Positions 6,978 to 41,733 of a DNA stretch of 64,000 nucleotides are shown in pieces. Within the stretch, counting starts at the first letter, position 1; the number at the start of each line of letters is the position of its first letter. A program made the position numbers and the translations under genes. Source of the stretch: a virus (Duplodnaviria > Heunggongvirae > Uroviricota > Caudoviricetes); IMG/VR virus record IMGVR_UViG_3300001199_000003, positions 58,537-122,536 of that record; one strand, written 5' to 3'. The notes beneath the pieces were generated by a model, which had not been told where the DNA came from, ran no database searches, and saw only the letters and a program-made list of their open reading frames with translations.

Positions 6978-7426
6978 GCGAACAAGTAAATCCAATACAT
7001 GGGACCAGAGATGGTGCAGAATGTCCTGGATGTTCACATGAAAGCCATTTTGAGGAGAAATCTATGAGTATTGAAAAAGATCGCACGGTAGGATATGCTC
7101 AACCAGGACCTAAAGCTCCTCCTCACGCTATGAACGGTAGATTTATTCTGGAAACCTACAAAGAAGATCGCGCTCTAAAAGCTACGGTTTCAAATGGTTT
7201 CGCTATGGTTCAACAGAAAGTGTCTCTCAAAGGCCTCACTGTTTTGGCTGATGTGTTTTCGCCTGTTAACGGTCAACCGCTTGCGCGTAGAGGCGATAAA
7301 GCTTTTATTCGTGAAGCATCTCTTCAGTCACAGCCATGGGCTAAAGCTTCTTTTACTGCAGATGGTATTGAAGGCGAGTTCATGATTGTTGAAATGACCT
7401 ATATCGAATTCGTGGATCATAAATAA
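6974..7426 (+). CDS. hypothetical protein
   Basis: Track ORF. Start overlaps the upstream stop (ATGA). Confidence 0.5.
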   Translation: MSEQVNPIHGTRDGAECPGCSHESHFEEKSMSIEKDRTVGYAQPGPKAPPHAMNGRFILETYKEDRALKATVSNGFAMVQQKVSLKGLTVLADVFSPVNGQPLARRGDKAFIREASLQSQPWAKASFTADGIEGEFMIVEMTYIEFVDHK

Positions 7427-8409
7427 TGAAAATCTTGCGAGTGGGCGACCCACACATTAGACCAAGCAATATTCCTGAAGCTGAGAAGCTCATGCAGTTT
7501 GTTTTGACTCTTGTCAAAAACGCAAAAGTTGACCGTCTTGAGCTGCTCGGCGATCTTTTCCATACTCACGCTGTAGTTAGATTAGAGGTTCTGGAGTTCT
7601 GGAATAAATGGCTCCAAGTGTTCTCTGATATAATAGAGACAGTGGTCCTTGTTGGGAACCATGACCAAGGCGGTGATCACCATTCTGGTACTCACGCGCT
7701 TGAGGTGTTCAAGAGGATCAACAGTGGAAAACTCAGAATCATCGACAGAGCAACAGTTATCGGACCTTTCCTCTATATGCCGTACATTCACGATGGAGGA
7801 GTATTCGTCAATACTGTACGCGGATTTAGTGGTAAGGAAGCCAGGATACTGGTGTGTCATCAAACCTTTAGCGGTTCACAGTTCGACAACGGATTTTACG
7901 CCCCAGAAGGAATCAATCCCGATGATATCCCATTTGATACCATCATCTCCGGCCATATCCACAAAGAGCAGGTTCTCGCGGGAGGAAAAGTTGATTATCC
8001 TGGCACTGCTAAGTGGGATACTGCTTCTGACGCTAATGAGCGTAAGGGTGTTTGGCTATATGAACACGACGATGTAACTGGAAAGGTTATTAATCGTGAC
8101 ATGATCTCTACCGAGAAAGTCGTAACCCCAATCGTGTCTTTTAAATGGATCGAAGGTGAAGAAGCTCCGGTAATCCCTGAAGGCGCTAAAGCATCCATCG
8201 AGCTTATTGGCTCAAGTGATTGGATTACTAAACAGAAGTCTAAACTTAAGGGCAAGGTCTCGATTAGCTCTAAATTTACAGATAAGAAAGAAAGAGCTAA
8301 CAGAGTAGTTGTTAAATCTTTTGAGATTTTCTTGACAGAATATTATGGCCCGTTGGACCCGAATCGTTACGCATTGATCGCTTTCGCTAAGGAGATCGGA
8401 ATTGTCTAG
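7426..8409 (+). CDS. sbcD: SbcD/Mre11-like metallophosphoesterase nuclease
   Basis: Calcineurin-like motifs: GDPH near the N-terminus, GDLFH, GNHD and GHIH. Confidence 0.65.
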   Translation: MKILRVGDPHIRPSNIPEAEKLMQFVLTLVKNAKVDRLELLGDLFHTHAVVRLEVLEFWNKWLQVFSDIIETVVLVGNHDQGGDHHSGTHALEVFKRINSGKLRIIDRATVIGPFLYMPYIHDGGVFVNTVRGFSGKEARILVCHQTFSGSQFDNGFYAPEGINPDDIPFDTIISGHIHKEQVLAGGKVDYPGTAKWDTASDANERKGVWLYEHDDVTGKVINRDMISTEKVVTPIVSFKWIEGEEAPVIPEGAKASIELIGSSDWITKQKSKLKGKVSISSKFTDKKERANRVVVKSFEIFLTEYYGPLDPNRYALIAFAKEIGIV

Positions 8410-9503: not shown

Positions 9504-10475
9504 ATGAAAAACGCACTTAAATTTACACTGAGCTTGATGCTCGTTGCCTTTATGGTAGCGGTTCCTGCTCAAGCAGGGGCGATTAAAAAGATCGTTCTTA
9601 CTTCAGACAATACACTCAGTCTTAATGATGCTGTTACTGGCGCTTCAGTTGCTGAAGTTATCACTAAAGCTAAAGAACTGGACAGTAGCTTTGGTGTTTA
9701 CGCCACTATTACCGGCAAGAAAGATATCTATTTTTATCTTCGCACTCCAGGTGGATCAATTCAATCCGGCCTTGAGATGTTTGAAGCTCTTAATGGCCTT
9801 GATCGTCCAGTTCACACTATTACTAGCTTTGCAGCTTCTATGGGTTTCCAGACGGTTCAAAACCTTGGAAAACGCTATATTGTTAAAAGCGGTGTTTTGA
9901 TGTCCCACAGAGCGTCAGGTGGATTTGAAGGATCATTTGGTGGACAAAAACCGAGCCCAATGGACTCTCAAAAGAACTTCTGGGAACAACGTCTTCACGA
10001 AATGGATATGAAAACCGTAGAGCGCACTAAAGGTAAGCAAACTCTAGCTTCTTACCAAGCTCAATACGCTCCTGATATGTGGTTAACCGGTACTCAAGCT
10101 GTTGAGCAAGGATATGCTGACGAAGTTGTTCAAGTTCAGTGCGATTCATCTTTGGCCGGAGTGACTACTAAATCTGTGAATTTCATGGGTTTAATCAATA
10201 TCAACTACGACCTTGATAATTGTCCTTTAAATTCTACTCCAATGAATATCCGTATTTCTCGTATCGCTACCAATAAAGGTGAAATGGACTTTAATAAGTT
10301 TCAAGCTGCTGGCGGCGGATACGGTGTTGACTGTCTAATCGCTTCTGGTACTGATAAAACTAAGGTTTGTGCTACTAACACTTCCCTTAATGCTGAAAGA
10401 ATATATGGTCTTAAAAATGAATTCCGTAATTACTATATGGATATTAAAGGCCAAGTAAAGAACTTCAGATATTAA
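9504..10475 (+). CDS. secreted ClpP-class (S14/S49-like) serine protease
   Basis: N-terminal signal peptide MKNALKFTLSLMLVAFMVAVPAQAG. ClpP-type active-site block ITSFAASMGF. Four cysteines in the C-terminal part. Confidence 0.45.
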   Translation: MKNALKFTLSLMLVAFMVAVPAQAGAIKKIVLTSDNTLSLNDAVTGASVAEVITKAKELDSSFGVYATITGKKDIYFYLRTPGGSIQSGLEMFEALNGLDRPVHTITSFAASMGFQTVQNLGKRYIVKSGVLMSHRASGGFEGSFGGQKPSPMDSQKNFWEQRLHEMDMKTVERTKGKQTLASYQAQYAPDMWLTGTQAVEQGYADEVVQVQCDSSLAGVTTKSVNFMGLININYDLDNCPLNSTPMNIRISRIATNKGEMDFNKFQAAGGGYGVDCLIASGTDKTKVCATNTSLNAERIYGLKNEFRNYYMDIKGQVKNFRY

Positions 10476-10728: not shown

Positions 10729-12936
10729 GTGTTAAAACTTAAGCAACTTCGCATCAACGGCATTGCTACGTTTGTTGAAGAACAGACTATCAATCTAGAA
10801 AATCTTGGCCATTTAATTCAAGTCGATGGAGAGAACCGGAATACCGGAGGATCTTCAGGTGCAGCTAAATCCAGCGTATTCAATGCTTTGGACTATCTCT
10901 TCGGAGTCAACGATCTACCTACTACTGTCCTTCAATCCAGATATACGAAAGAACCTTTAAGTGTCATTGGAGATCTGGATTGGGATGGCCAATCTGTAAC
11001 TGTTTCGCGTTCTAAGAAGGGATTCAGTATCGAAATAAATGGAAATATTATCGAAGGATCGAGTAAGCTTACAGAAGAGAAGCTTGACGAGATTATCGGT
11101 ATGCCTCGTGATCTTTTCCGTAAGATCCTCCATAAGCGACAAAAAGAGGGTGGATTCTTTCTTAATTTCACTCCCAAGCAAATGTATGAATTTCTGACCG
11201 ATGCCTTAAATATGGCTGAAGAGCGCAAAAAGCTCGAAAAAGTTGAAGCAAAGCTTTCTGAGCTTGAAAAATCTAAAGCCGCAAAAGAGAGCATCGTTAC
11301 TGGTCTAAGATCTAGCGTAAAAGCTACTCAGGAGTCGATCCTTGCTCTTGGCCTACCTCCAGTGCGAGATATTCACCAATCGGTTATTTTAGAGCTTAAA
11401 ACTAAGATGGATGCCAGCACAGATGCTTTGGTTAAAGTCCAGGAAGGCCATAAACTAGCAAACGAGTTCTTAGATAGCCAACGACCAGTCCTTATCCCTA
11501 ATCCGACCCTGGAAGCTCCAGAACAGCTTCCTCAGCCAGAATTGATGCAGGCTACTTTAGATAATCAAGCTGAGATTGCTAGTATTGAAAATCAAATATC
11601 TGCTTTAAATAAAGAGATTTCAGAGATTAAGCAAGCTGAAGCTGAACGAATCAAGAAAGTAACAGCTTCTATTCAGGAAAGAAAGCTGAATTTGTCGGTT
11701 TTATCCCACAAATGTACGATTGCCGGTACAGCTAAAGATGAAGCAGCTAAGATTGCAGGTGAAATCAAGAGTATTCGTGATGCAATTTGCCCTACCTGCG
11801 AACAGAGTTGGGTTACTGACACCGCAAAAGTCAAAGAAGCCGAGTTTATGGCGAAATTGACTCAATATAAAGCTCAAATTCAAGAGGGCGCATCTGCCGA
11901 AAACACTATCCAAAACATCAAATCTGAGGTGGAATCGCTCGAAAAAGAGCTAAAACCTCAAGGTTTAGACGATATTTCTGAGAAAAACAATGCTTTGATG
12001 GGGTATAATTCGCAATTATCGTCCGAAAAAGACAAAGCAAACGCATATAAAGCCGAAATTTCAATTAAAAACGCCGAAATCTTGAAAAATCATGCTGAAA
12101 AGCAGAAAGCGATCAATTATGAAGTATCAAATCGTAATGCTGGTATTTTGGCTGACATTTCTGCTAAAAATAAAGCGGCTTCTGACGATTATCAGTTCAA
12201 AGTTACCGCAGTCAGAGAGACCCAGGCACGCGAATTAGATCAAGCCAGGGGCCAATCTGACGTAGATCGCAGAGCTTTTGAGGCTGCTGCTTCAAAACTT
12301 AAACTGTTCACAGATTCTTTGGCTAGATATGAGTCATCTATTAAGACAATGAGAGAGCAAGAAACAAACTATTCTTTATCTTTGGCCAAAGCTGAAGAAG
12401 ATTTTGAGTTACTTTTACAACAAATTTCAATGGCTGAAGAATTACGTAAAGCAGTGAAACTATTCATTTCTATTTCGTTCGATAGAGCTTTAGAGAACAT
12501 TGGAGACGCTGCAACTAAAATTATCCGTTGCGTTCCTACCATGTCTAATGCTACAATACAGTTTGAAGGCCAGAAAGAGACCAAAGAAGGCAAGATAAAA
12601 GAAGAAGTGAACGCCGTTATCAGTATGAATGGCGACATCGGAATCCCTATCAAGTCATTGTGCGGTGGAGAAAGATCTTCAACCGACCTAGCTGTAGATT
12701 TGGCTGTAATCGAGTTTATCGAGGAACAGACAGGTAAAGGCATAGACATCTTTATTCTTGACGAACCATTCACAGGATTAGATACTGTAGGGATTGAGAT
12801 GGTACTTGAATTTTTGAGAAACTTAACCAGCACCAAGAAACTGATTATCGTGGACCACAATCCAGAAGTCAAAGAAATGGTCAGTGATCGAATAGTTGTC
12901 GTGCGAGAAGGTAATTCTAGTACGATAGCAAGCTAG
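10729..12936 (+). CDS. sbcC: SbcC/Rad50-like SMC ATPase
   Basis: N-terminal P-loop region, a long central coiled coil with a CPTC zinc-hook motif near the midpoint, and a C-terminal FILDEPFTGLD Walker B/D-loop. GTG start. Confidence 0.65.
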   Translation: MLKLKQLRINGIATFVEEQTINLENLGHLIQVDGENRNTGGSSGAAKSSVFNALDYLFGVNDLPTTVLQSRYTKEPLSVIGDLDWDGQSVTVSRSKKGFSIEINGNIIEGSSKLTEEKLDEIIGMPRDLFRKILHKRQKEGGFFLNFTPKQMYEFLTDALNMAEERKKLEKVEAKLSELEKSKAAKESIVTGLRSSVKATQESILALGLPPVRDIHQSVILELKTKMDASTDALVKVQEGHKLANEFLDSQRPVLIPNPTLEAPEQLPQPELMQATLDNQAEIASIENQISALNKEISEIKQAEAERIKKVTASIQERKLNLSVLSHKCTIAGTAKDEAAKIAGEIKSIRDAICPTCEQSWVTDTAKVKEAEFMAKLTQYKAQIQEGASAENTIQNIKSEVESLEKELKPQGLDDISEKNNALMGYNSQLSSEKDKANAYKAEISIKNAEILKNHAEKQKAINYEVSNRNAGILADISAKNKAASDDYQFKVTAVRETQARELDQARGQSDVDRRAFEAAASKLKLFTDSLARYESSIKTMREQETNYSLSLAKAEEDFELLLQQISMAEELRKAVKLFISISFDRALENIGDAATKIIRCVPTMSNATIQFEGQKETKEGKIKEEVNAVISMNGDIGIPIKSLCGGERSSTDLAVDLAVIEFIEEQTGKGIDIFILDEPFTGLDTVGIEMVLEFLRNLTSTKKLIIVDHNPEVKEMVSDRIVVVREGNSSTIAS

Positions 12937-19274: not shown

Positions 19275-20198
19275 ATGATTAAAATTGGGTCACTTTTTAG
19301 CGGTGTTTCAGGCTTAGAGCTTGAGCTTCTAAAACGTCCAGATTTTGAGCTAGTATTCGTGGCAGACCCTGATAAGTTCTGCTCTCAGGTTTTGGCTTAC
19401 CATCATCCTAGGGCTCGCAATTTAGGATCTGTGACAGAGGTCGATTACAATACTGTCCCTGATTGTGACATGATCATGGGCGGAACCTCTTGTCAGAACT
19501 TCTCTTATCAAGGCGACAAGAAAGGCCTAGAGGGCGTGAAGTCTAAACTGTTCTATGATTTCGCAAAAATCATCCAGTTTAAGCAGCCTAAATATGTAGT
19601 TTGGGAAAACGTATTTGGGGCCTATACTCACAGTGATTTTCAAATTGTAAAGGAAATATTCAATGAAATCGGATACGAAATCGACTACGGTATCTTTAAC
19701 TCAGCAGTCTTTGCAAGAACAATTCAGCAACGGCAGCGAATCATCCTCCTTGCCACGCGTAAAGACCTTAACCAAGTTAGACTTGATCGCACAATACCTA
19801 GTCTCGAACTCGGTCAAGAGATGCAAGATCTCCAAAAGCGACTGGTCGGGGTTAGCAAGTCTCATCGAGAAGAAAAAGTAGACAGAGAAGGAAACATCAT
19901 CGAAGAAGGTAAGATCGAGGTTCGTTTGAACCATGGCTTAGCCAATACTCTTGTGACTGGATGGGGATGCGCCGGAGTTAGCACTAAAAACTACACCGTA
20001 GGCGAAGATGGCACTTTAAGCGAACTTACCGTCAACGAAGCAGAACTTCTCATGACTTGGCCAAAAGATTGGACTAGGTACGGTTTTAAAGATGGAGAAG
20101 TTGTTGAGATACCTACTGCTCAGCGCTATAAAATGTGCGGAAACGGTGTAGTGTCTGAGGTTGTTGGAAACATATTTAAAAATTTGGAGTTAGTATGA
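19275..20198 (+). CDS. DNA cytosine-5 methyltransferase
   Basis: Motif I FSGVSGLE, motif IV GGTSCQNFS (TSCQ where the canonical motif is PCQ), motif VI WENV. Confidence 0.65.
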   Translation: MIKIGSLFSGVSGLELELLKRPDFELVFVADPDKFCSQVLAYHHPRARNLGSVTEVDYNTVPDCDMIMGGTSCQNFSYQGDKKGLEGVKSKLFYDFAKIIQFKQPKYVVWENVFGAYTHSDFQIVKEIFNEIGYEIDYGIFNSAVFARTIQQRQRIILLATRKDLNQVRLDRTIPSLELGQEMQDLQKRLVGVSKSHREEKVDREGNIIEEGKIEVRLNHGLANTLVTGWGCAGVSTKNYTVGEDGTLSELTVNEAELLMTWPKDWTRYGFKDGEVVEIPTAQRYKMCGNGVVSEVVGNIFKNLELV

Positions 20199-20369: not shown

Positions 20370-21014
20370 ATGAGTCAACTTTATATGCCGTGGGATACAG
20401 AGACTGGTGGATTAAACGAAAATACCGCCGATCTTCTAACTGGTTATTTTTGTATCATGACTGAAGACTATCAGATCCTGGACGAATTGGATCTGAAGCT
20501 TAAACCGGACGGTGGCCGTCTTCCTATTGCTGAAAAGGGCGCTCTTGATGTTAATAAAATCAATATCGCTGAGCATTTGGCTAATCCAGCTACCGTGACA
20601 TACTCTGAAGGCCGAGCACAGCTCCAGGCTATGATTAAGAAGCATCTTAAGCGTAATGGTCGATATTCAAACATAACTCCGATGGGATATAACTGCCCTT
20701 TCGATATTCGCTGGACTCAGAAACATCTTTTTGAGCAGGATCTTTGGCAGTCACTTCTTCATTATAAGAACCATGACGTTATGGGTGTCGTAGATACTCT
20801 TAAGAAATACGGTCTTTTCCCTAAAACTTTAGGATCTCTATCTTCGGTTGTTGAGTACCTTGGCGTACCTACCCGTGGCGCGCACAATGCCAAAGAAGAT
20901 ACTTTGATGACAATTGACGTTGATAAGAAGCTTGCAGAATTCTTTAAGAGTCTGAAAGCTGGCGGCGGAGCAGGTGCTGGAACGGATCTAATCACCCTTT
21001 TAGAGGCGGAATAA
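20370..21014 (+). CDS. DEDD-family 3'-5' exonuclease (DnaQ-like)
   Basis: WDTETGGL exo motif I and C-terminal HNAKEDTLMT (HxAxxD motif III). Confidence 0.55.
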   Translation: MSQLYMPWDTETGGLNENTADLLTGYFCIMTEDYQILDELDLKLKPDGGRLPIAEKGALDVNKINIAEHLANPATVTYSEGRAQLQAMIKKHLKRNGRYSNITPMGYNCPFDIRWTQKHLFEQDLWQSLLHYKNHDVMGVVDTLKKYGLFPKTLGSLSSVVEYLGVPTRGAHNAKEDTLMTIDVDKKLAEFFKSLKAGGGAGAGTDLITLLEAE

Positions 21015-21170
21015 TATGTACGTTTTACTTATCATTCTTTCATTGAACTACAGTGGAAAAGCTTTGACTTCTCAATCTATCCCATTCGCAACTAAAGCGC
21101 TATGTGAAGAAGCTAAAAGCGAAGTCACAGGAAGCAGTGTTATCTATTCAGCTGATAAGACTACGGTTTT

Positions 21171-21446
21171 GTGCTTAAAAGCAAAATAGCCCTCATCTCG
21201 CTTTTGGCTCTATCTGGATGCCAGCGTAATCCTGGCCCATTCAGGGCTACTGTTAGCTATAAATTAAATATTCCACTTGAAACTAGAATAATGGCATCTT
21301 CCAGCGAACATGGATATTTTAGTGTTTACAATTCTCCATTCTTTGATACAATTCATTACGGAGATAAGGTAATTGCTAAATGTAAATACATGAGCGGGAT
21401 TTTCGGAGGACCATACAGATGTCAGATACTGGAAAAGGTAAGATAG
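21171..21446 (+). CDS. small lipoprotein
   Basis: Signal peptide with lipobox LALSGC. GTG start. Confidence 0.45.
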   Translation: MLKSKIALISLLALSGCQRNPGPFRATVSYKLNIPLETRIMASSSEHGYFSVYNSPFFDTIHYGDKVIAKCKYMSGIFGGPYRCQILEKVR

Positions 21447-21823
21447 ATCTTACTCAACTTGTGAAAATTCTTAACCTGACACAGTCCGATTCGGATGGCG
21501 AAGCTCTTAATGCTTTGCGTATGGCAAATTCTAAGCTCAAAGCTGCCGGTCTCACCTGGCAAGATATCTTATCTCCCACTTATCAGCCTAAAAAAGAAGT
21601 AGAACGTCCTTATAAGTTTAAAGAAGCTCCACACACTTTCAATGCAGGTTTCTTTAGGAATGCCGTTACAAGAGATGAATTTATCAATGTTTTATCTAAA
21701 GAACAGCATAAGTGGATAAACTCTCTAATCGACTACTATAACGATCATCATTATTTGCCACATAAAACCTGGACAACTTTCACTGAGTTGTGGTATAATT
21801 TTAGAGAAGCTTATAGGGGATAA
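21419..21823 (+). CDS. hypothetical protein
   Basis: Track ORF. Confidence 0.45.
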   Translation: MSDTGKGKIDLTQLVKILNLTQSDSDGEALNALRMANSKLKAAGLTWQDILSPTYQPKKEVERPYKFKEAPHTFNAGFFRNAVTRDEFINVLSKEQHKWINSLIDYYNDHHYLPHKTWTTFTELWYNFREAYRG

Positions 21824-21825
21824 CT

Positions 21826-22044
21826 ATGACAGTTTGGGTTCTTACTGCAGAACATAATGATTACGACCAACACGGTGAGTATTTCATTAATGTTTTCTAT
21901 AAAAAACCAGATGTTATTCAGATCTCAGCTATTTTAGGCGAGGAAGTTTCTTTCGAGTATTGTCAACATATCGTCGATAAAGGCGGTAGGACCGATAAAA
22001 TGGAAAACGTGTGGTATAACTTAACAGAGGTAACGCCGCTATGA
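21826..22044 (+). CDS. hypothetical protein
   Basis: Track ORF. Confidence 0.4.
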   Translation: MTVWVLTAEHNDYDQHGEYFINVFYKKPDVIQISAILGEEVSFEYCQHIVDKGGRTDKMENVWYNLTEVTPL

Positions 22045-22310
22045 AGAAAGACCGATCAAATTTTACCAATGAAGAGCTGATCGCAGAGATCGAATACTTT
22101 GAGAAGGACAAGGCTGAGCTTGAAAGACGAATCAAGACTGCCAGAGATGAAGGTCGGAAAGAAGGTCTTAATACTCTTAAATCTAAAATTTACCCACTTT
22201 ACACTACTTGTTTTACCGATAAGGGTTGGATTGGGTATGCTAATTTGAACACGGCTAATGTAGGCAAGAAACTTCTAGAATTACTTGCAACATTTCATGG
22301 AGAATTCTAA
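22041..22310 (+). CDS. hypothetical protein
   Basis: Track ORF with overlapping start and stop. Confidence 0.4.
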   Translation: MKKDRSNFTNEELIAEIEYFEKDKAELERRIKTARDEGRKEGLNTLKSKIYPLYTTCFTDKGWIGYANLNTANVGKKLLELLATFHGEF

Positions 22311-22696
22311 TGAGACATAGGATTGTAACCGGTACTGGGTTTGGTAATTCAGCTCCAGTTCTTCTGGACAATAAAGGCACGATCAACGCATTGTTCGCTT
22401 TAGATGCTCTTAAAGAATACTTTCAGCGCGAGGAAGGGTTTGACTTCCAGCTCAATAAGAATTACGTAAATATTGGCCTCGAACCAGCCTATCAATACGA
22501 GCGCCTAAAGATTATTTCAATCAATAAAGACAAAGATAAGTCATTTATCATGACCGGAAAAGCCTGGGGCCCATACGGATCTCAGATTGCGAAGAGCCAA
22601 AAATCTTATGCAGAATACAAATACAACAGCAAGTTCGTGAAATTTGTCGATAAATGGCATGAGGTATTGTTTGGCACGAACAAAAAAGGGCGCTAA
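22310..22696 (+). CDS. hypothetical protein
   Basis: Track ORF. Confidence 0.45.
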   Translation: MRHRIVTGTGFGNSAPVLLDNKGTINALFALDALKEYFQREEGFDFQLNKNYVNIGLEPAYQYERLKIISINKDKDKSFIMTGKAWGPYGSQIAKSQKSYAEYKYNSKFVKFVDKWHEVLFGTNKKGR

Positions 22697-22824
22697 AGGC
22701 TCAGGCTACGAATATTGGGGAAAGCGACCAGGGAACATGTATTCTCCTGGTAGGAGAGCTAAGAAGCTAACACATAAGATCGAAAGATTGCGAAGTAAGC
22801 TTTTAGCTAAAAAGGAGAAAGATA

Positions 22825-23307
22825 ATGAAACGAAGTAACGGATTTGTACTATTTTGGGGAGGACCTTTCTCTCAATGGTATCCACATAAAATGACTATTA
22901 ACGGCGTAGAATATAACTGTTGTGAGCAGTACATGATGGCTGAAAAAGCCCGTACCTTCGGAGACGCTGAAGCTTTGGAAGCAATTATGAAGTCTTCAGA
23001 TCCTAAGTATCAGAAAGCCGTAGGTCGCGGTGTTAAAAATTTCAATCCACATATCTGGGAAAAAATAGCAATGGACGTGGTTCTTAGAGCCAATATTGCT
23101 AAGTTCTCAGATCCAGAGCTTAAGAAATTCCTCTTTAGTTTTGGCAATGAAGAGATCGTTGAAGCTAGCCCTTACGATAAGATTTGGGGTATCGGCCTTT
23201 CTGAAAACGATCCAGATGCTTTAGATAAGACTAAATGGCAAGGACAAAACCTGCTTGGCGAAGCTATTATGCAAGCTCGCGAAGTATTAAAAAATTCGGT
23301 GGCTTAA
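22825..23307 (+). CDS. NADAR (YbiA/DUF1768) domain protein
   Basis: FWGGPFSQWYP...VEYNCCEQYMMAEKARTFGD...IWGIG fits the NADAR family pattern. Confidence 0.7.
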   Translation: MKRSNGFVLFWGGPFSQWYPHKMTINGVEYNCCEQYMMAEKARTFGDAEALEAIMKSSDPKYQKAVGRGVKNFNPHIWEKIAMDVVLRANIAKFSDPELKKFLFSFGNEEIVEASPYDKIWGIGLSENDPDALDKTKWQGQNLLGEAIMQAREVLKNSVA

Positions 23308-23308
23308 C

Positions 23309-23692
23309 ATGAGACAAACTAGTATTGATGCCTATAATAGTATTAGAGATTCCGGTGCTTTAGGCACTTTAAGATGGAAAGTTTACGATTACATCTTCAA
23401 TCATGGCCCAGTCTCAATGATGGAAGCTAACCTAGCCTTAAACGACGATAAATACTCAAATGGAAGCTATACTTCCAGATTTGCAGAACTTCGCCATGCT
23501 GGAGTTATCCACGAAGTTGGAAAACATAAATGTCCACATACCGGCAGAACTGCTACTTTATGGGACGTTACTGGCCGCCTTCCTAGGATTTTAACTAAGA
23601 GAGAAGTTATTCTGGAAAAAATTGAAGCAGCTAAAGCCAAATTAGCCAGAGTAGAGCAGGAATTGCTAGACTTTGATATGGGGAACACATGA
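23309..23692 (+). CDS. hypothetical protein
   Basis: Track ORF. Confidence 0.45.
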   Translation: MRQTSIDAYNSIRDSGALGTLRWKVYDYIFNHGPVSMMEANLALNDDKYSNGSYTSRFAELRHAGVIHEVGKHKCPHTGRTATLWDVTGRLPRILTKREVILEKIEAAKAKLARVEQELLDFDMGNT

Positions 23693-24087
23693 AATATAGC
23701 AAGTTTAAGATTTTCTCAGCAGTTCTTCTTGTTGGACAAGGATTCTACTACGCAATCACTCAGCCTGGTCCAATGGATTCCGTGAACGCTATCATCCACG
23801 GATTTATCTTGGCTTCACTGTTTGTTATCGAAGATCCTAAGCCAGAAAAGCAGGAAGAATGAAACATATTTTTTTCCACTTGCCTTTCTGCTTGATCTCA
23901 TGTACTGTGATCCATATCGTGGACTATAAGTTCCATCTGTTTGATAAGTTGATCGCTTTCTTGGTAGGGCTAGGAATACTGTGAAATTTTTATATATTGT
24001 GGTAGTTACAGCTATGCTTGGATTCTGTTGCTATGAAGCAGCGAAGTTGCTAGCTGAAATGTTTATGATCTGCTTGGAGACAATGCG

Positions 24088-24333
24088 ATGAAAAATAAGT
24101 ATATTTTGAGAATTAACGGCGTAACATACGCAGGACCTTTTACTTGTCCCATTTATAGAATTTTTAGGTTAGATAAGGACGCTCCAAACTATAAAGATCA
24201 GATCCAAAAATTGTTTGAGCTTCCTGGTGGAACAATTGATGTTACAGAATTGGACGGAACAGTAGTTAACCACGGATTAAGATTGATTGCTGCCGAGAGA
24301 TCTTCCGATGGATTTGAATTAAGGACTTCTTAA
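24088..24333 (+). CDS. hypothetical protein
   Basis: Track ORF. Confidence 0.4.
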   Translation: MKNKYILRINGVTYAGPFTCPIYRIFRLDKDAPNYKDQIQKLFELPGGTIDVTELDGTVVNHGLRLIAAERSSDGFELRTS

Positions 24334-27300
24334 ATGAAAGTTAGCCCACATACACATGCAGAGTCACCTCTAACCGGTTCAACCCTGGCGACTTTAGTGA
24401 AATCCGCAAAGACACTTGGACGAACTCACTTCGCCTACACGGATCACGGCCACTTAAGCTCTGCGCTTAAAGCCTACAATCAAGTTAAAAAAGCTGGTCT
24501 GAAATTCATTCCAGGAATTGAGATCTATTTTAAAGATACTATGTGTCCGTTAGTTGCTGGTACTCCTGTTGACCGTTGTAAGTATTTTACAACAACTATC
24601 TATTGCCAGGACCAAGCCTCCTATCAAGAACTTTGTAAGATAGTTTCCCGTACTGATATGCCTACTATGGAATTCTACGAAGAAAGTCAGCAATTATGGC
24701 GTTGGGAAGATCTTGAGCAGATGGCCAAATTCAACACACAGATCGTCCTTTCGGGCGTTCACTGTATGGTCGGTAAAGCTATGCTTGCCGGTAAAGCCGA
24801 TATTGGGGAGAAAATTTTGACCCGATTACAGGGTTTATTCGGGTCACGCCTATCAGTTGCTATTTTGGCTGAACCTTGGCTTAAGAAATTCTCACAGGTT
24901 ATTGAAATCAAATATGAAGATGGTACGTCAGATTCCATCCTGGCAACAGATAGTGTTTCTACCGACCGTGCTCGTTCTATACGAGCAAAAGATCTATGTG
25001 AGCCGTTTAGTCGTCATAAGCACATCAAGTCTAAGTCGGTCGGAATGATGAGTTCCGAAGTCAATAAAGATATTAAGAAGGCTACTTTACATAAAGGGTT
25101 CCTACCTTTGCCTGGCGGAGATGCTTCTTTGAAGGTAAACCGCTTTCTCGCTGCTTTGGCTAACAAGCACGGGATCAATATTTTAGTCACCGATTACGCT
25201 TATTACGCAAATAAAGAAGATAAAATCGTTCAAACCATGCGTTTAGAAGGTAATAATAAGCTTCAGCCAAATCTTCACATGAAGAATGAACAAGAAGTTA
25301 TGGATTATCTCACGGTAACTATGGGATTTCCAGCTGAAAAAGCTAAATCTATCATCGAAAACAACGAAAAATGGGCTGAAAAGTTCAATGATTTCAAAAT
25401 AACCTATGCTTGGCGTCTTGCTGAGGTCGAAGGTTCGCAATCTGCCATTAAAACTGCCATGGATATCGTTAAAGACAATAGTCGAATGCGTTGGAATGAT
25501 CCAAAATACGTTGAAAGACTTAAAGAAGAGCTGGCTGTAATTCACTCAAACGGTGTTTACGATCTTGCCCCATATTTCTTACCGATCCATGCCGTTCTTG
25601 ATCACTATCGCAGAAACGGATTGTTGACTGGCCCTGGACGGGGTTCTGCCGGTGGATCTCTTTTGTGTTATTTAATGGGGATCACTCAGATTGATCCATT
25701 CGATTTTGACCTACCATTCCAGCGATTCTTCTCGATGGTCCGTATTAAGAGTAAAAAACTTCCAGATATCGACGTGGATTTAGAGGGCCGAGAATTGCTC
25801 GTAGGCGAGGACGGACATTCTGGCTACCTTTACGGCCGATGGGGCAACAAAGCTGCTCAGATCAGTACCAGAACCACAATCAGGCTAAAATCAGCCATCC
25901 TAGACACTAACCGTTATTTCAATGGTAAGGTTGAGGATTCAATCGCTGCCCTTTCCAAGGGTCTCCCTACGCCTCCACAGGGTGTAACGGATCACCAATT
26001 CGTATTTGGCTATGAAGACTCAGATGAAAACCATATCGACGGTCTAATCGAAGTAAACGATGATCTTCGTAAATATTCAATAGATCGGCCAAAAGAGTGG
26101 GAGATTGTGTCGAAGGCAATGGGTCTCACAAGAGCCTATTCTAAACACGCATCGGCATTCGTTATTGCAGATGTTCCTATTCAAGATGTTATCCCTACTA
26201 AAGATGGAAACATCACGCAATATGAAGCTAAAGAAGTTGAGGAAGCCGGTCTGATTAAGTACGACTTCCTAGTTGTTAAGCAGCTCAAAGATATTCGAGT
26301 TGCTATGGAACTGATCAATAAGAAAAATAAAGCAACTAAAACTGTAGGGTATTTTGACCACAACGGTCAAGAGCTTTACGTCTGGAAACTCCCTCAAGAG
26401 GGCGATGTTTACCGGTCAATCTGGAATGGTCAAACTGAGACTCTATTTCAGATCAATACGGCTTCTATGCGACCGTTTGTGGTTGATATGTTACCTGAAA
26501 ACATGATGGACGTTGCCACCCTTCTTGGTCTAGTGCGACCAGGACCTATGGACTTTATCGACGAAGATACTGGCCGAAACATGGTTGAAGAGTACATGCT
26601 CCTTCGTAAGAAAGAGATTGATCCTAAGATCAAAGAAATGTACGAGCTTCTTCCAGAGACTTTCGGGATTTTAGTATTCCAAGAGCAGCTTGGTACAATT
26701 GCTAGAAAGCTAGCAGGATTCTCAGGAGAGGACGCAGAGTTACTCCGAGAAAATATGGCCAAAAAGAAGATGGTCGAACTTTTGAAAATGAAGCCTGCTT
26801 TTATGGAAGGTGCTGTCAAGAATATTGACCCAGCTATTGCCGAGAAGATCTGGGAATCAATGGTGACGTTCGGTCGTTACGGATTCTCGGTAATTCACGC
26901 CGTTGAATACGCACATATTACCTACGCTTGTATGTTCTTAAAATACCACTATCCCTTAGAATGGTGGGCTGCAGTTCTTACGAACGCGACCGAACAAGAG
27001 ATCACCGGTAAGTTTTGGCCATTCGTAAAAGACATCGTTTCACCTCCAGACATTAACTTGTCTTCGGATACTATGGCAGTGGATTACGCTAACGGACTAT
27101 TGCGTTCAAAACTCGGGATTATCCGTGGTATGGGCGAGAAGACTATTGATCCAATCGTTTCTGGCCGCCCTTATGCGGATATCCAGGATTACGTGAACAA
27201 AGATGTTGCAGGCGAAAGCTTAACTCACAAATTAATTCACGTTGGCGTATTGGATTCTCTATTTCCTCCTAAGTCTGGACTGTACGATAAGTTGAAGCTT

Positions 27301-27891
27301 TATCAGCAAGCTATTCAGAATAAAGCCTACGAAGACAAACTTGCTAAGGCTACCGCTGAAGGTAAGAGAATGCGTCAGACAGCTCCGAAAGAAGGGCAGA
27401 TCCCAGAGGATTATCTGAACATTCCACCAATCAAAGATGTGGCAATGAGAAAAGCAGTTCTACCGTCTCTCCCTGTAGATCTATTTAGTCTAGGTGCTAA
27501 GTATTCTAAAGTGCTAGATCCATTTTCGGATAGACCAGCAGTTAGATCACGCCAAGGCTATAAAACTCTTCTGTTAAATGGTGAGAAACTACGTCGTTTA
27601 GATGAGCTTGAAGGATTAATGGTCGAGGAAGATATTTATATCGCCGCTACCTGTTTTGTATTGGAAGCTAAAGAATTTGCCTATGCTAAGAATACCAAAA
27701 AAGCTCTCAAATTAATGCTTGACGCAGATGGCTATGTCTCAGAAAAGGTATTATGGCCAGAGTATGAAAGTGGAAACCTAGTTTACCCTTCTACTCTTAA
27801 GAAAGGTGCTATCGCTACGGTTTTTTTCAGGAAAAAGACCGGCAGAAAAGATATGTCGATCATGAACATAGTGGTAGAAACAGATACTTGA
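24334..27891 (+). CDS. dnaE: DNA polymerase III alpha subunit (DnaE-type, PHP domain)
   Basis: N-terminal PHP motifs HTHAES...YTDHGHLSS...IPGIEIY. Conserved polymerase block GPGRGSAGGSLLCYLMGITQIDP. 1185 aa. Confidence 0.85.
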   Translation: MKVSPHTHAESPLTGSTLATLVKSAKTLGRTHFAYTDHGHLSSALKAYNQVKKAGLKFIPGIEIYFKDTMCPLVAGTPVDRCKYFTTTIYCQDQASYQELCKIVSRTDMPTMEFYEESQQLWRWEDLEQMAKFNTQIVLSGVHCMVGKAMLAGKADIGEKILTRLQGLFGSRLSVAILAEPWLKKFSQVIEIKYEDGTSDSILATDSVSTDRARSIRAKDLCEPFSRHKHIKSKSVGMMSSEVNKDIKKATLHKGFLPLPGGDASLKVNRFLAALANKHGINILVTDYAYYANKEDKIVQTMRLEGNNKLQPNLHMKNEQEVMDYLTVTMGFPAEKAKSIIENNEKWAEKFNDFKITYAWRLAEVEGSQSAIKTAMDIVKDNSRMRWNDPKYVERLKEELAVIHSNGVYDLAPYFLPIHAVLDHYRRNGLLTGPGRGSAGGSLLCYLMGITQIDPFDFDLPFQRFFSMVRIKSKKLPDIDVDLEGRELLVGEDGHSGYLYGRWGNKAAQISTRTTIRLKSAILDTNRYFNGKVEDSIAALSKGLPTPPQGVTDHQFVFGYEDSDENHIDGLIEVNDDLRKYSIDRPKEWEIVSKAMGLTRAYSKHASAFVIADVPIQDVIPTKDGNITQYEAKEVEEAGLIKYDFLVVKQLKDIRVAMELINKKNKATKTVGYFDHNGQELYVWKLPQEGDVYRSIWNGQTETLFQINTASMRPFVVDMLPENMMDVATLLGLVRPGPMDFIDEDTGRNMVEEYMLLRKKEIDPKIKEMYELLPETFGILVFQEQLGTIARKLAGFSGEDAELLRENMAKKKMVELLKMKPAFMEGAVKNIDPAIAEKIWESMVTFGRYGFSVIHAVEYAHITYACMFLKYHYPLEWWAAVLTNATEQEITGKFWPFVKDIVSPPDINLSSDTMAVDYANGLLRSKLGIIRGMGEKTIDPIVSGRPYADIQDYVNKDVAGESLTHKLIHVGVLDSLFPPKSGLYDKLKLYQQAIQNKAYEDKLAKATAEGKRMRQTAPKEGQIPEDYLNIPPIKDVAMRKAVLPSLPVDLFSLGAKYSKVLDPFSDRPAVRSRQGYKTLLLNGEKLRRLDELEGLMVEEDIYIAATCFVLEAKEFAYAKNTKKALKLMLDADGYVSEKVLWPEYESGNLVYPSTLKKGAIATVFFRKKTGRKDMSIMNIVVETDT

Positions 27892-27907: not shown

Positions 27908-28714
27908 GTGTATTCTAATAGTATGAAAAAACTACTTATCATTCTAATGATCGCTTTACTTGGATGTACTGAAAAGCCTAAAGCTCCTACGCAGGAGACC
28001 AAAGTAGAATCTGCTCAAATGCGTAAGAAGAAAAAGCGCTACATTTGTGGCGAGAAAACTGTCGTAGTAGCCGTGATTGATACTGGGTTTAGTTTTTCCG
28101 ATCTCACTAAAAATGTAAGACTTTGCAATGAAGGTCACAGAGATTTTAGCGGAATGAACGAATTCGATAATCGTTACACTAAAACTCCAGTTCCTACCGA
28201 TAGCGATAAAGATTTTCATGGAACAAATATAGCTGGCTTGATCCAAGACTTTGGCTCTTATGCTAATTTCTGTATGGTAATTATCAAATATTATGATCCA
28301 AAAGCCACAGGTCAACAGAGCTTAGAAGCCAGTATCGCCGCAGTTAAATATGCAACTGACATTAAAGCGGATTACATTAACTATTCTAGTGGTGGCCAAT
28401 TATCTAATGATGCTGAGAATGTAGTCATTAAAGCGTATTTAGATCAAGGTGGAAAATTTATAGCTGCTGCTGGTAACGAAGCAGAGAATACAGATATTGC
28501 TCCTTTCTATCCTGCTATGTCAGATCCACGCATCGTATCTGTTGGTAGCACGGACATGTACGGCAAAAGACTTCCAACCTCTAATTACGGACCTAAAGTT
28601 ACTACGTGGGAAATTGGAGATAAGATGAAAGCTTTTGGAATCGTTAGAACTGGAACCAGTCAAGCAGCTGCTATTGTAACAGGTAAAACACTTAGAAAAG
28701 AATGTATCAAATAA
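27908..28714 (+). CDS. subtilisin-like (S8) serine protease lipoprotein
   Basis: Lipobox LLGC. Asp VAVIDTG, His DFHGTNIAG and Ser GTSQAAAIVTG catalytic blocks. Confidence 0.55.
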   Translation: MYSNSMKKLLIILMIALLGCTEKPKAPTQETKVESAQMRKKKKRYICGEKTVVVAVIDTGFSFSDLTKNVRLCNEGHRDFSGMNEFDNRYTKTPVPTDSDKDFHGTNIAGLIQDFGSYANFCMVIIKYYDPKATGQQSLEASIAAVKYATDIKADYINYSSGGQLSNDAENVVIKAYLDQGGKFIAAAGNEAENTDIAPFYPAMSDPRIVSVGSTDMYGKRLPTSNYGPKVTTWEIGDKMKAFGIVRTGTSQAAAIVTGKTLRKECIK

Positions 28715-31297: not shown

Positions 31298-32722
31298 ATG
31301 GATTTAATGACACTTGGTATTGTGGCAGGCGGAATTCTAGGCCTAGCCGGTATCGCTTTCCTAGTAGCAGTCAGTTTACGTCGAGTCGTTCCTACGAACG
31401 AAGTTCACATTGTTCAGTCTGCAGCAAGCACTACGTCTTACGGTAAGGGAACTGGTCACGGTAACTCTTACTTTGAATGGCCTACTTCTATCCCTTTCCT
31501 GGGCGTAAGTAAGACAGTCATGCCTACATCTAACTTCGACGTAGATCTTAAAGCGTATGAAGCTTACGATGACGGTCGTCTCCCTTTCCTGGTAGATATT
31601 AAAGCATTCTTTAGAATTGCTGACTCAAACGAAGCTGCTCAAAAAGTTGCTAACTTTGATGAACTTCTTAATCAGTTAACTGCCATTGTTCAAGGTGCTG
31701 TACGTACTGTTTTGGCTTCAAACTCGATTGAAGAAATTATGCAAGGCCGCTCTAAGTTCGGTACTGAGTTCACTAAAGAAGTTCACGAACAGCTTAAAAA
31801 CTGGGGTGTTGAAACTGTTAAGAATATCGAACTTATGGATATTCGCGATGCTAAGGATTCTAAAGTAATCCACAACATCATGGAAAAGAAAAAGTCTCAA
31901 ATTGAATCTGAATCTCGCGTAGCTGTAGCGAATAACCACAGAGATGCTGAGCTTGCAGAAATCGCGGCTCGTCAGCAAACTGATCTTAAAGCTCAAGAAG
32001 CTCAAGAAGCAGTTGGTCTTCGTACTAACGAACAAGAAAAAGCCGTAGAGATTGCTAAACAAGAGAAAATTCAAGCTCTTAAAGAGCAAGAAAAGACGAC
32101 TAAAGAAAAAGAAATGGCCGTTATTAAGATTGGTAAGCTTCGTGAAGCAGAGATTGCTAAAGAAGTTGCCCTTGTTAAGTCTGAACAGGATAAACAAGTT
32201 GCTTTGATTCGCTCTGAGCAAGAGAAGCAAGTTGCGGTTATCGCTGCAGAAGGTGAAAAACAAAGAATTGAGCTTGAGTCTTCTGGTCAGTTGAAAGCTA
32301 CCCAAAACCAAGCTGAAGGTATCGCCGCTACTGGTAAAGCAAATGCTGAAGCTGAACAAGCTATCCTTGCTGCTCCAGTTAATGCCCAGATTCTTTTGGC
32401 CAAAGAGATCGGTGGAAACGAGTCGTACCAGAAGTACCTCATCACTATCGAGCAAGTTAAAGCTAACGCTCAAGTCGGTATGGAACAAGCTAAGGCTCTC
32501 CAAGCTGCTGACGTTAAAATTATCTCAAACTCTGGTAAGTCAACTGACGGCCTTAAGAGCGTAATGGATGTCTTCTCTTCCCAAGGTGGAGTAGAAATCG
32601 GTGCGATGCTTGAAGGTCTAGCTGCTACTGAGAAAGGTCAAGAGTTGATTGGTAAGTTTTTAGGTGGAAAGAAAACAGCAGCTGCTGATAAAAGCCCACT
32701 AAGTGACTCAGCTAAATCGTAA
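31298..32722 (+). CDS. SPFH/band-7 (flotillin-like) membrane protein
   Basis: N-terminal transmembrane helix, SPFH-like core, then a long Glu/Ala/Lys coiled-coil repeat region as in flotillins. Confidence 0.6.
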   Translation: MDLMTLGIVAGGILGLAGIAFLVAVSLRRVVPTNEVHIVQSAASTTSYGKGTGHGNSYFEWPTSIPFLGVSKTVMPTSNFDVDLKAYEAYDDGRLPFLVDIKAFFRIADSNEAAQKVANFDELLNQLTAIVQGAVRTVLASNSIEEIMQGRSKFGTEFTKEVHEQLKNWGVETVKNIELMDIRDAKDSKVIHNIMEKKKSQIESESRVAVANNHRDAELAEIAARQQTDLKAQEAQEAVGLRTNEQEKAVEIAKQEKIQALKEQEKTTKEKEMAVIKIGKLREAEIAKEVALVKSEQDKQVALIRSEQEKQVAVIAAEGEKQRIELESSGQLKATQNQAEGIAATGKANAEAEQAILAAPVNAQILLAKEIGGNESYQKYLITIEQVKANAQVGMEQAKALQAADVKIISNSGKSTDGLKSVMDVFSSQGGVEIGAMLEGLAATEKGQELIGKFLGGKKTAAADKSPLSDSAKS

Positions 32723-39016: not shown

Positions 39017-39739
39017 ATGACTACTGAATCGAACCATAAATTAGATAAAAAGATTAAAGCGAAGTCCGACGACCACGTCTGGCACGTTCACGAATATGAC
39101 GTAGATTTGCAATCTAACCACATATACTTGATGGGTATGGAAAGCTACGCTGCGGGACATGAAGAGATGATCGGTGAGCCAGGAGTTGAATACTCCATGG
39201 CCAATAGATTCATCCGAAACTTGAACATCTGTATGCGTGCTAATCCAGATAAGCCTATTGTGATCCACATGAAAACCTGTGGCGGTCTGTGGGAAGAAGG
39301 CATGGCGATTTATGACGCGATTAAGTCGTGTCCAATGCCTGTAACTATCTTAAACTACACACATGCGCGTTCTATGTCGAGTCTGATCTTCCAAGCCGCT
39401 AATAAGCGTGTTATGATGCCCCATAGTTACTTCATGTACCACGATGGCACTTTGGCTGTAGATGGTACGACTAAGACGGTGATTTCTAATATTGAGTTCA
39501 CACAGAAGGTCAGCCAGGCAATGCTTGACATCTATGTTGATTCGATGAAGCTTTCTGGCAAGTACAAAAATCGTTCTCGTAAATGGCTCTACGCTTACCT
39601 GCGTGAGCAAATGGACAAGAAAGAAGACGTATTCGTAGTAGCTAAAGAAGCTGTGGAACTAGGATTTGCTGACTCAGTGTTTGATTACAACTGGGCTAAA
39701 CTGACCGATTACACTCAAGAAGAATTAGCTAGAGGATAA
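39017..39739 (+). CDS. ClpP-like (S14) protease
   Basis: IVIHMKTCGGLWEEGMAIYDAIK...ARSMSSLIF...MYHDG parallels ClpP INSPGG...AIYD...AASMGS...IHQP. Confidence 0.55.
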   Translation: MTTESNHKLDKKIKAKSDDHVWHVHEYDVDLQSNHIYLMGMESYAAGHEEMIGEPGVEYSMANRFIRNLNICMRANPDKPIVIHMKTCGGLWEEGMAIYDAIKSCPMPVTILNYTHARSMSSLIFQAANKRVMMPHSYFMYHDGTLAVDGTTKTVISNIEFTQKVSQAMLDIYVDSMKLSGKYKNRSRKWLYAYLREQMDKKEDVFVVAKEAVELGFADSVFDYNWAKLTDYTQEELARG

Positions 39740-41409: not shown

Positions 41410-41733
41410 ATGTTTATGGACCACTCAAAGAAATTAACCGAACTGGAATACGCTCAACTTCACAGAAAACATAAAAAGAAGTTGAAGGTAGATAAGATTC
41501 ATGTTAAACTGAATTTAGAACTGCCAGATCTGAGAACGGAACGAGCGCAGATAGAACAGGACAAGTGGTACAACTCAGTCCCTCTATCGAAAAAGCAAGA
41601 GTTTCTGGATCTTATGCTGGCAGGGAAGAATCTCGGAGAAGCCGCTAAGGCAGTCGGGATTGACACAGACATCGCAAGTCAGGTGATTTTGCGAAACATG
41701 GGCCAAATCTTTCCAAGTAAGGTGGAGAAATGA
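41410..41733 (+). CDS. hypothetical protein
   Basis: Track ORF. Confidence 0.4.
   Translation: MFMDHSKKLTELEYAQLHRKHKKKLKVDKIHVKLNLELPDLRTERAQIEQDKWYNSVPLSKKQEFLDLMLAGKNLGEAAKAVGIDTDIASQVILRNMGQIFPSKVEK

What the first reader, a model, noticed from the sequence alone, without database searches (positions are those of the whole stretch)
22825..23307. NADAR-domain protein (possible reversal of DNA ADP-ribosylation)
The match to NADAR/YbiA is clear (FWGGPFSQWYP, CCEQYMMAEKA, IWGIG). NADAR enzymes have been reported to hydrolyse ADP-ribose from guanine in DNA. That would make this a candidate anti-DarTG or other anti-ADP-ribosylation counter-defence gene in the phage.
Basis: partly seen in the sequence, partly recalled or inferred. 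Interest (0 to 1): 0.55.

Follow-up and report, generated by a model that had tools for sequence, protein, structure and literature searches.

The report
Ordinary phage NADAR ADP-ribose-removing enzyme
This phage gene encodes an intact NADAR enzyme of a kind already shown in other phages to strip ADP-ribose from guanine in DNA and defeat the bacterial DarTG1 defence, so it is a sound but ordinary annotation.

Summary
Window 22825-23307 (+) is a 160-aa ORF carrying all three quoted motifs. It matches Pfam NADAR at E=2.4e-46 over nearly the whole profile. Its AlphaFold model (pLDDT 96.9) matches only the two solved NADAR structures found, 8BAU and YbiA. Nine of the ten ADP-ribose-contacting or catalytic residues of PnNADAR are kept, one as a conservative Tyr-to-Phe change (E34, K41, K64, R68, F73, W78, E113, D118, W121); R93 is Ala.

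It is a Glu-type member of the NADAR family proper. It is not DarG1-type (Asp) and not T4-gp30.3-type (His). It shares 33% identity with AdfN-Bas60, a phage NADAR shown experimentally to neutralise DarT1.

The anti-ADP-ribosylation reading is therefore the leading hypothesis, but it is already published biology (AdfN, Nat Commun 2025). NADARs occur in about 27% of myoviruses.

The gene sits in a variable slot between the proofreading exonuclease and DnaE of a novel ~171-kb phage. No ADP-ribosyltransferase, macrodomain, NAD-salvage or riboflavin gene was found nearby. About half of its closest viral relatives do sit beside Macro and NAMPT genes, which keeps a small-molecule ADP-ribose role open.

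Verdict: new member of a known kind, low interest.

The parts
22825..23307 (+). NADAR-domain protein CDS (160 aa, stop included). It is a Glu-type stand-alone NADAR with predicted catalytic and ligand residues E34, K41, K64, R68, F73, W78, E113, D118, W121.
   Evidence: ORF. Pfam PF08719 E=2.4e-46. AF2 pLDDT 96.9. Foldseek TM 0.82 to 8BAU and 0.78 to 2B3W. Residue map. Invariance across 57 sequences.
22813..22817 (+). Shine-Dalgarno-like AGGAG, 7 nt upstream of the ATG.
   Evidence: Read directly from the sequence. SD-like 4-mers precede 35 of 53 genes in the window, against about 4 expected at random positions.
22659..22838 (+). Small conserved basic ORF (59 aa from the ATG at 22659; the ORF listing gives a TTG at 22644). 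It overlaps the NADAR start by 14 nt. It is a neighbour, not shown to be functionally linked.
   Evidence: phrog_7399 E=1e-6. An orthologue lies directly upstream of the NADAR in L002 with a 4-nt overlap. It sits elsewhere, or without a NADAR, in L005 and L098. It is not in the Logan gene calls.
21015..24333 (+). Variable gene slot between the conserved DEDDh exonuclease (20370-21014) and DnaE (24334-27891). It holds the NADAR and about 10 small ORFs.
   Evidence: The RNase H-exonuclease-DnaE backbone is present in 8 relatives. The exonuclease-to-DnaE spacing ranges from 0 to 3.3 kb. The NADAR is present only in the window, L002, L005 and L102.

Best explanation
The gene encodes a catalytically competent, stand-alone NADAR N-glycohydrolase of the Glu-type 'NADAR proper' family. 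The most likely mechanism is as follows. The protein binds the ADP-ribose moiety attached to a nucleobase: the N2 of guanine, and possibly also cytosine as some Glu-type NADARs do. K41, K64 and R68 hold the phosphates. F73, W78 and W121 contact the adenine and ribose. E34, E113 and D118 coordinate the distal ribose. The enzyme then hydrolyses the N-glycosidic bond, releasing free ADP-ribose and restoring the base. It would be expressed together with the phage replication genes between which it lies. It would clear ADP-ribose adducts placed on phage single-stranded DNA by a host ADP-ribosyltransferase toxin (DarT1-type or pierisin/ScARP-like), letting replication proceed. That makes it an AdfN-like orphan-antitoxin counter-defence. 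What is shown here: family membership, fold, intact active site, orphan status, and position in a variable slot of the replication module. What is inferred: the substrate, the timing of expression, and the counter-defence role.
For: Strong NADAR profile match and a confident model that matches only NADAR structures. Nine of the ten PnNADAR ligand or catalytic residues are identical or conservatively replaced. The same alignment reproduces the published T4 E36 and K43 positions, which validates it (PMC11543638; PMC11825919). E34, K41, W78, E113 and D118 are invariant in 57 sequences that include AdfN-Bas60 and YbiA. The closest experimentally tested relatives are PnNADAR (35% identity, E=5e-24, hydrolyses guanine-ADPr) and AdfN-Bas60 (33%, E=1e-26, neutralises DarT1 and rescues three phages from DarTG1). 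Every NADAR class tested so far removes guanine-ADPr in vitro (PMC11125620; PMC12945103). No transferase gene was found within +/-10 kb, so it is an orphan. It lies between a DnaQ-like exonuclease and DnaE, in a slot that varies among related phages, as accessory counter-defence genes often do.
Against: The host is unknown, so the presence of a DarT1-like toxin in it is unknown. Some NADARs active in vitro do not rescue from DarT1 in cells: YbiA, and T4 gp30.3 outside infection. R93 of PnNADAR is Ala here. In about half of the closest viral relatives the NADAR is embedded with Macro, NAMPT, NUDIX and PRPP-synthetase genes. Iyer et al. read that context as processing of small ADP-ribose derivatives rather than DNA repair.
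Confidence: 0.55

Rival explanations
1. The enzyme acts on low-molecular-weight ADP-ribose derivatives or on the NAD+ economy. It would cleave N-glycosidic bonds in soluble ADP-ribose-derived immune signals or by-products, working with NAD+ salvage to blunt NADase- or TIR-type defences rather than repairing DNA.
For: Among the 80 closest IMG/VR loci (47-64% identity), NAMPT lies within 6 kb in 37, a Macro-domain gene in 32 (median gap 36 nt, always on the same strand), PRPP synthetase in 23 and NUDIX in 23. Iyer et al. 2022 proposed this role for phage NADARs (PMC9503650).
Against: None of these partner genes is in the window or its fetched flanks. Here the gene sits among replication genes. 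No NADAR has been shown to act on such signals, whereas nucleobase-ADPr hydrolysis is shown for every class tested. A Macro neighbour is equally consistent with broad removal of macromolecular ADP-ribose.
Confidence: 0.2
2. It is a YbiA-like housekeeping N-glycosidase that destroys reactive riboflavin-biosynthesis intermediates.
For: NCBIfam TIGR02464 'riboflavin biosynthesis intermediates N-glycosidase' matches at 157 bits against a cut-off of 73.7. Relatives in databases are labelled 'ribA/ribD-fused' or 'GTP cyclohydrolase II'.
Against: The same model is passed by AdfN-Bas60 (109 bits) and PnNADAR (118 bits), both ADPr-guanine hydrolases, so the name does not discriminate. The family profile is much closer to PnNADAR (3.4e-26) than to YbiA (1.3e-14). 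No riboflavin gene was found in the window. A lytic phage has no evident need for this function. YbiA itself also removes guanine-ADPr.
Confidence: 0.05
3. It counters a different ADP-ribosylation-based system. It might reverse RNA base ADP-ribosylation, or act as a binder and inhibitor of an ADP-ribosylated defence effector, as reported for a T5 NADAR-like inhibitor of Retron-Eco1.
For: NADARs also remove guanine-ADPr from RNA, and Glu-type members remove cytidine-ADPr. Johannesman et al. cite Carabias 2024 for a phage NADAR that works without catalysis.
Against: The full catalytic set is invariant across the family, which argues for an enzymatic role. No evidence here points to RNA or retron targets.
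Confidence: 0.15

Closest known systems
AdfN-Bas60 (Escherichia phage PaulScherrer bas60_0111), anti-DarT factor NADAR (Johannesman et al. 2025, PMC11825919)
   Same: Both are orphan, stand-alone phage NADARs. Both carry Glu at the PnNADAR E125 position, and the same E/K/K/R/W/E/D set is kept. Identity is 33% over 167 columns, E=1e-26. Both pass TIGR02464 and hit PADLOC PDC-M42C.
   Different: AdfN-Bas60 is 183 aa with two insertions, has Y142 in place of W121, and keeps R102 where the window protein has A82. It comes from an unrelated coliphage and has a different genomic context (next to an FtsH-like protease gene). Its activity has been demonstrated; the window protein's has not.
Phytophthora nicotianae NADAR (PDB 8BAU; Schuller et al. 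2023, PMC11543638)
   Same: It is the best structural and sequence match in the PDB: TM 0.82, 33-35% identity, family-profile E=3.4e-26. Eight of its ten ADPr-contacting residues are identical, and Y84 becomes F73.
   Different: It is a eukaryotic protein with a ~20-residue insertion after the WGIG motif. R93 is Ala in the window protein.
E. coli YbiA (PDB 2B3W), riboflavin-intermediate N-glycosidase and YbiA-type NADAR
   Same: Same fold (TM 0.78), Glu-type active site, and the TIGR02464 model is passed by both.
   Different: Only 28% identity (E=2e-11). K64 and F73 equivalents are Ala and Pro in YbiA. YbiA lacks the loop after WG, has pI 9.4 against 6.2, and sits in a chromosomal LexA-controlled operon.
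DarG1 antitoxin NADAR (E. coli C7; G. lovleyi 8BAT) and T4 gp30.3 (AdfN-T4)
   Same: Same superfamily and, presumably, the same reaction: hydrolysis of guanine-N2-ADPr.
   Different: DarG1 has Asp at the catalytic position, an N-terminal extension and an adjacent DarT1 gene. T4-like NADARs have His at that position. The window family profile does not find 8BAT at E<=1, and blastp finds no meaningful similarity to gp30.3.

Membership tests
NADAR superfamily (Pfam PF08719) | Profile match above the curated threshold over the whole domain | tested here: met
   158.4 bits against a cut-off of 35.1, E=2.4e-46, profile positions 11-162 of 163.
NADAR superfamily (Pfam PF08719) | NADAR fold (helical core with small N-terminal beta-hairpins) | tested here: met
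   AF2 pLDDT 96.9, pTM 0.90. The only significant PDB matches are 8BAU (TM 0.82) and 2B3W (TM 0.78).
NADAR superfamily (Pfam PF08719) | Conserved ADPr-binding and catalytic residues (PnNADAR E43, K50, K75, R79, Y84, W89, E125, D130, W133) | tested here: met
   E34, K41, K64, R68, F73, W78, E113, D118, W121 are present; only R93 is changed, to A82. E34, K41, W78, E113 and D118 are invariant in 57 sequences.
NADAR superfamily (Pfam PF08719) | Hydrolysis of nucleobase-linked ADP-ribose | not testable with these tools
   Needs an in-vitro assay on guanine-ADPr, cytidine-ADPr and thymidine-ADPr oligonucleotides.
AdfN (phage anti-DarT factor NADAR, functional class) | Phage-encoded orphan NADAR with no cognate transferase toxin nearby | tested here: met
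   Phage contig with a portal protein and related genes. No ART or DarT Pfam hit within +/-10 kb.
AdfN (phage anti-DarT factor NADAR, functional class) | Sequence relationship to an experimentally validated AdfN | tested here: met
   33% identity, E=1e-26 to AdfN-Bas60. No detectable similarity to AdfN-T4. AdfN-Bas32 was not obtained.
AdfN (phage anti-DarT factor NADAR, functional class) | Neutralises DarT1 toxicity or rescues phage from DarTG1 | not testable with these tools
   Requires a co-expression toxicity assay and plaque assays as in PMC11825919.
YbiA-type NADAR (riboflavin-intermediate N-glycosidase) | Closer to YbiA than to other NADAR families | tested here: not met
   Family profile: 8BAU 3.4e-26 against YbiA 1.3e-14. 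blastp: 80.9 bits against 47.4 bits.
YbiA-type NADAR (riboflavin-intermediate N-glycosidase) | NCBIfam TIGR02464 above cut-off | tested here: inconclusive
   Passed at 157 bits. AdfN-Bas60 and PnNADAR also pass, so the model does not separate the families.
YbiA-type NADAR (riboflavin-intermediate N-glycosidase) | Fusion to, or linkage with, riboflavin genes (RibA/RibD) | tested here: not met
   It is a single-domain protein. No riboflavin gene was found in the window.
DarG1 (DarT1-associated NADAR antitoxin) | Adjacent DarT1 gene, Asp at the catalytic position, N-terminal extension | tested here: not met
   No DarT gene nearby. Glu113 stands at the catalytic position. The domain starts at residue ~1-13 of a 160-aa protein. 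8BAT is not detected by the family profile.
T4-like 'phage NADAR' (gp30.3, PF08010) | His replacing the conserved Glu; similarity to gp30.3 | tested here: not met
   E113 aligns with T4 H123. blastp gives only an 8-residue chance match at E=4.5.

The most novel reading that the evidence does not exclude
This Glu-type phage NADAR clade might not be primarily a DNA-repair counter-defence. It might be a glycohydrolase for soluble ADP-ribose-derived immune signals or NADase products. That is suggested by its tight linkage to Macro, NAMPT, PRPP-synthetase and NUDIX genes in about half of its nearest viral relatives. The copy in this phage would have been moved into a variable slot of the replication module. 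Alternatively, it might have broadened specificity to cytidine-ADPr or RNA adducts made by defence transferases that are not yet described.
Probability: 0.15. Interest if true: 0.5.

Novelty: new member of a known kind. Interest (0 to 1): 0.2.

Why it matters
If confirmed, it would add a divergent AdfN-like enzyme from an uncultured ~171-kb phage lineage whose nearest described polymerase relative is Myxococcus phage Mx1 at 33% identity. That would extend the evidence that reversal of nucleobase ADP-ribosylation is a widespread phage counter-defence. It would also imply that the unknown hosts use guanine-targeting ADP-ribosyltransferase defences. It would not change current understanding. NADARs are already known to be common in large phages, and their anti-DarTG1 role is published.

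Tried and rejected
- Megablast of 3 kb around the gene against GenBank phages found nothing. The phage has no close described relative.
- I looked for a partner transferase, macrodomain, NAMPT, NUDIX or riboflavin gene in the window and its flanks, using precomputed Pfam hits, Pfam scans and tblastn. None was found.
- The sigma-70 promoter and terminator scan around the gene was no better than shuffled sequence.
- I tried to retrieve the 'sigma70-linked' E. coli NADAR from O157:H7 Sakai. The rpsU-dnaG-rpoD region there has no NADAR, so I dropped it.
- The AdfN-Bas32 sequence and the accession tables were not available, because no supplement is held.
- One window protein look-up (41410-41733) was not on record.
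- Net charge and pI did not discriminate DNA-acting from other NADARs.
- PADLOC gave only a candidate-system model, PDC-M42C, which AdfN-Bas60 and YbiA also hit. That is not evidence for a defence role.
- NF053876 (DS32_2 anti-phage NADAR) scored far below its cut-off: 36.9 bits against 240.
- Host inference gave conflicting hints. Relatives are binned with Flavobacteriaceae and Saprospiraceae MAGs. However, 35 of 53 genes have Shine-Dalgarno motifs, which from general knowledge is unusual for Bacteroidota. No tRNA genes were found.

Full report
**Observation.** It runs from 22825 to 23307 on the + strand, starts with ATG and encodes 160 aa. All three quoted motifs are in the translation. An AGGAG lies 7 nt upstream of the start. 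Pfam NADAR (PF08719) matches at E=2.4e-46, 158 bits against a cut-off of 35.1, over profile positions 11-162 of 163. PHROG 1017 ('unknown function') matches at 5e-48. In the PDB, the sequence finds PnNADAR 8BAU (6.5e-17) and E. coli YbiA 2B3W (1e-4). An AlphaFold2 model built on 54 homologues is very confident (pLDDT 96.9, pTM 0.90). Foldseek against the PDB returns only 8BAU (TM 0.82) and 2B3W (TM 0.78) as significant matches.

**Active site.** Schuller et al. 2023 (PMC11543638) list the PnNADAR residues that contact ADP-ribose or are needed for catalysis: E43, K50, K75, R79, Y84, W89, R93, E125, D130 and W133.
- In a MAFFT alignment these correspond to E34, K41, K64, R68, F73, W78, A82, E113, D118 and W121 of the window protein.
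- The same alignment places T4 gp30.3 E36 and K43 at the first two positions. Those are exactly the residues mutated by Johannesman et al., which validates the register.
- In a 57-sequence alignment that includes AdfN-Bas60, Xanthomonas phage Elanor and YbiA, the residues E34, K41, W78, E113 and D118 are invariant. K64, R68, F73 and W121 are at least 90% conserved.

**Which NADAR family.** The literature divides the superfamily into NADAR proper, YbiA-type, DarG1 and T4-like phage NADARs. The residue at the PnNADAR E125 position is Glu in the first two, Asp in DarG1 and His in the T4-like group.
- The window protein has Glu (E113).
- Its family profile scores 8BAU at 3.4e-26 and YbiA at 1.3e-14. 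It does not find the DarG1 structure 8BAT at E<=1.
- blastp gives 35% identity to PnNADAR (5e-24), 33% to AdfN-Bas60 (1e-26), 28% to YbiA (2e-11) and nothing meaningful to T4 gp30.3.
- NCBIfam TIGR02464 ('riboflavin biosynthesis intermediates N-glycosidase') is passed at 157 bits. AdfN-Bas60 (109 bits) and PnNADAR (118 bits) also pass it, so that name does not discriminate between families.
- I conclude that the protein is a Glu-type stand-alone member of the NADAR proper family. [quoted passage not shown]

**Genomic setting.** The window is part of a 171,229-bp contig assembled from SRR2043728.
- The phage is novel. Megablast against GenBank phages finds nothing. Its 1185-aa DnaE-type polymerase is only 33% identical to that of Myxococcus phage Mx1, the best described match.
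- GC content is uniform at about 41%.
- Upstream of the NADAR lie endonuclease VII, RNase H, a C5 cytosine methyltransferase and a DEDDh proofreading exonuclease. Downstream lie DnaE, an S8 subtilase and a Band_7 protein. A DnaB-like helicase is further on.
- No ADP-ribosyltransferase, macrodomain, NAMPT, NUDIX or riboflavin gene was detected in the window or its fetched flanks.
- A survey of eight related phage contigs shows a conserved RNase H-exonuclease-DnaE backbone. The exonuclease-to-DnaE interval varies from 0 to 3.3 kb.
- The NADAR occupies that interval only in the window and in the three nearest relatives (L002, L005 and L102, with DnaE at least 76% identical and NADAR 64-79% identical). 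It is missing from that interval in five more distant relatives.
- So the gene sits in a variable, accessory-type slot within the replication module. Whether the other relatives carry a NADAR elsewhere could not be decided from the fetched loci.

**Wider family.** The protein has thousands of homologues (3,823 at E<=1e-5) and hits 733 GenBank phage records.
- The closest cellular homologues (45-49% identity) are chromosomal genes of Chryseobacterium, Alistipes, Palleniella, Ruminococcus and others.
- Among the 80 closest IMG/VR loci (47-64% identity; 68 distinct NADAR sequences), 37 have NAMPT within 6 kb. A Macro-domain gene is present in 32, with a median gap of 36 nt and always on the same strand. 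PRPP synthetase is present in 23 and NUDIX in 23 (examples).
- This ties the clade to NAD+/ADP-ribose biology rather than to riboflavin. It matches the survey of Iyer et al. [quoted passage not shown]

**Mechanism and what is already known.** All four NADAR classes tested hydrolyse guanine-N2-ADP-ribose on DNA and RNA. Several Glu-type members also remove cytidine-ADPr. None removes DarT2 thymidine-ADPr.
- Orphan phage NADARs from three unrelated phage groups (AdfN-T4, AdfN-Bas32, AdfN-Bas60) counter the DarTG1 defence by enzymatically cleaning phage DNA.
- The window protein has an intact active site, is related to AdfN-Bas60 and PnNADAR, has no partner toxin, and is placed among replication genes. 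The best-supported explanation is therefore an AdfN-like nucleobase de-ADP-ribosylase protecting replicating phage DNA (confidence about 0.55).
- The main rival is action on soluble ADP-ribose derivatives or on the NAD+ economy (about 0.2). Other ADP-ribosylation targets, such as RNA adducts or non-enzymatic inhibition as cited for Retron-Eco1, come next (about 0.15). The YbiA riboflavin function is least likely (about 0.05).

**Verdict.** It is, however, a routine annotation: a new member of a known kind, with the proposed function already demonstrated for homologues and the domain very common in large phages. Interest is low (0.2). Only biochemistry or genetics can settle the substrate and the target.

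Noticed in passing
window 22659-22838 (+): A small basic ORF (59 aa, motif 'KGxGYEYWxKRP') overlaps the NADAR start by 14 nt. It matches phrog_7399 (E=1e-6) and is conserved directly upstream of the NADAR in L002. It is absent from the Logan gene calls. In L005 and L098 it lies elsewhere or without a NADAR, so the linkage is loose.
   Followed up: partly
window 21015-24333 and loci L002, L005, L098-L103: The interval between the proofreading exonuclease and DnaE is a hypervariable slot (0-3.3 kb) in this phage lineage. It holds different sets of small ORFs, among them a phrog_1123 protein (23309-23692) that was seen only in the window.
   Followed up: partly
L103 9550-10142: In one relative (IMG/VR 3300031788_000018) the DnaE gene is interrupted by about 590 nt. 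The two halves are in the same frame, but the insert has 15 in-frame stops, so it is not an intein. No Rfam family (for example a group I intron) matched at E<=0.01.
   Followed up: partly
L003/L004 5868-9196: In a different phage-like contig, a 58%-identical NADAR is flanked by an IMPDH/GMP-reductase gene carrying an HNH insertion, a 191-aa fragment-like adenylosuccinate synthetase gene and an N6/N4 DNA methyltransferase. This may be a purine-metabolism or DNA-modification cluster.
   Followed up: no
window 9504-10475, 27908-28714, 31298-32722, 39017-39739, 45303-45755: The phage has an unusual load of protease and quality-control genes: two ClpP-like proteases, an S8 subtilase, an M50 peptidase and a Band_7/SPFH protein. 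A Cpn60 chaperonin gene lies just upstream of the window (L007 1-1600).
   Followed up: no
window 19275-20198 (+): A C5 cytosine DNA methyltransferase (PF00145, E=2.4e-45) lies 2.6 kb upstream of the NADAR, so the phage DNA is probably 5-methylcytosine-modified at some sites.
   Followed up: no
window 47308-47826 and 56107-57072 (+): An HD_4 (RelA/SpoT-type HD hydrolase) domain protein and a class I/II aminotransferase are encoded among the small early-type genes.
   Followed up: no
whole window: Host hints conflict. Related contigs are binned with Flavobacteriaceae and Saprospiraceae MAGs. However, 35 of 53 genes have Shine-Dalgarno-like motifs (about 4 expected by chance), which from general knowledge is atypical for Bacteroidota. 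The nearest described DnaE is from Myxococcus phage Mx1. No tRNA genes were found.
   Followed up: partly
window 7426-8409 and 10729-12936 (+): A Metallophos (Mre11/SbcD-like) gene and a 735-aa gene with a faint SMC_N hit (Rad50/SbcC-like) suggest a phage-encoded SbcCD-type nuclease pair.
   Followed up: no
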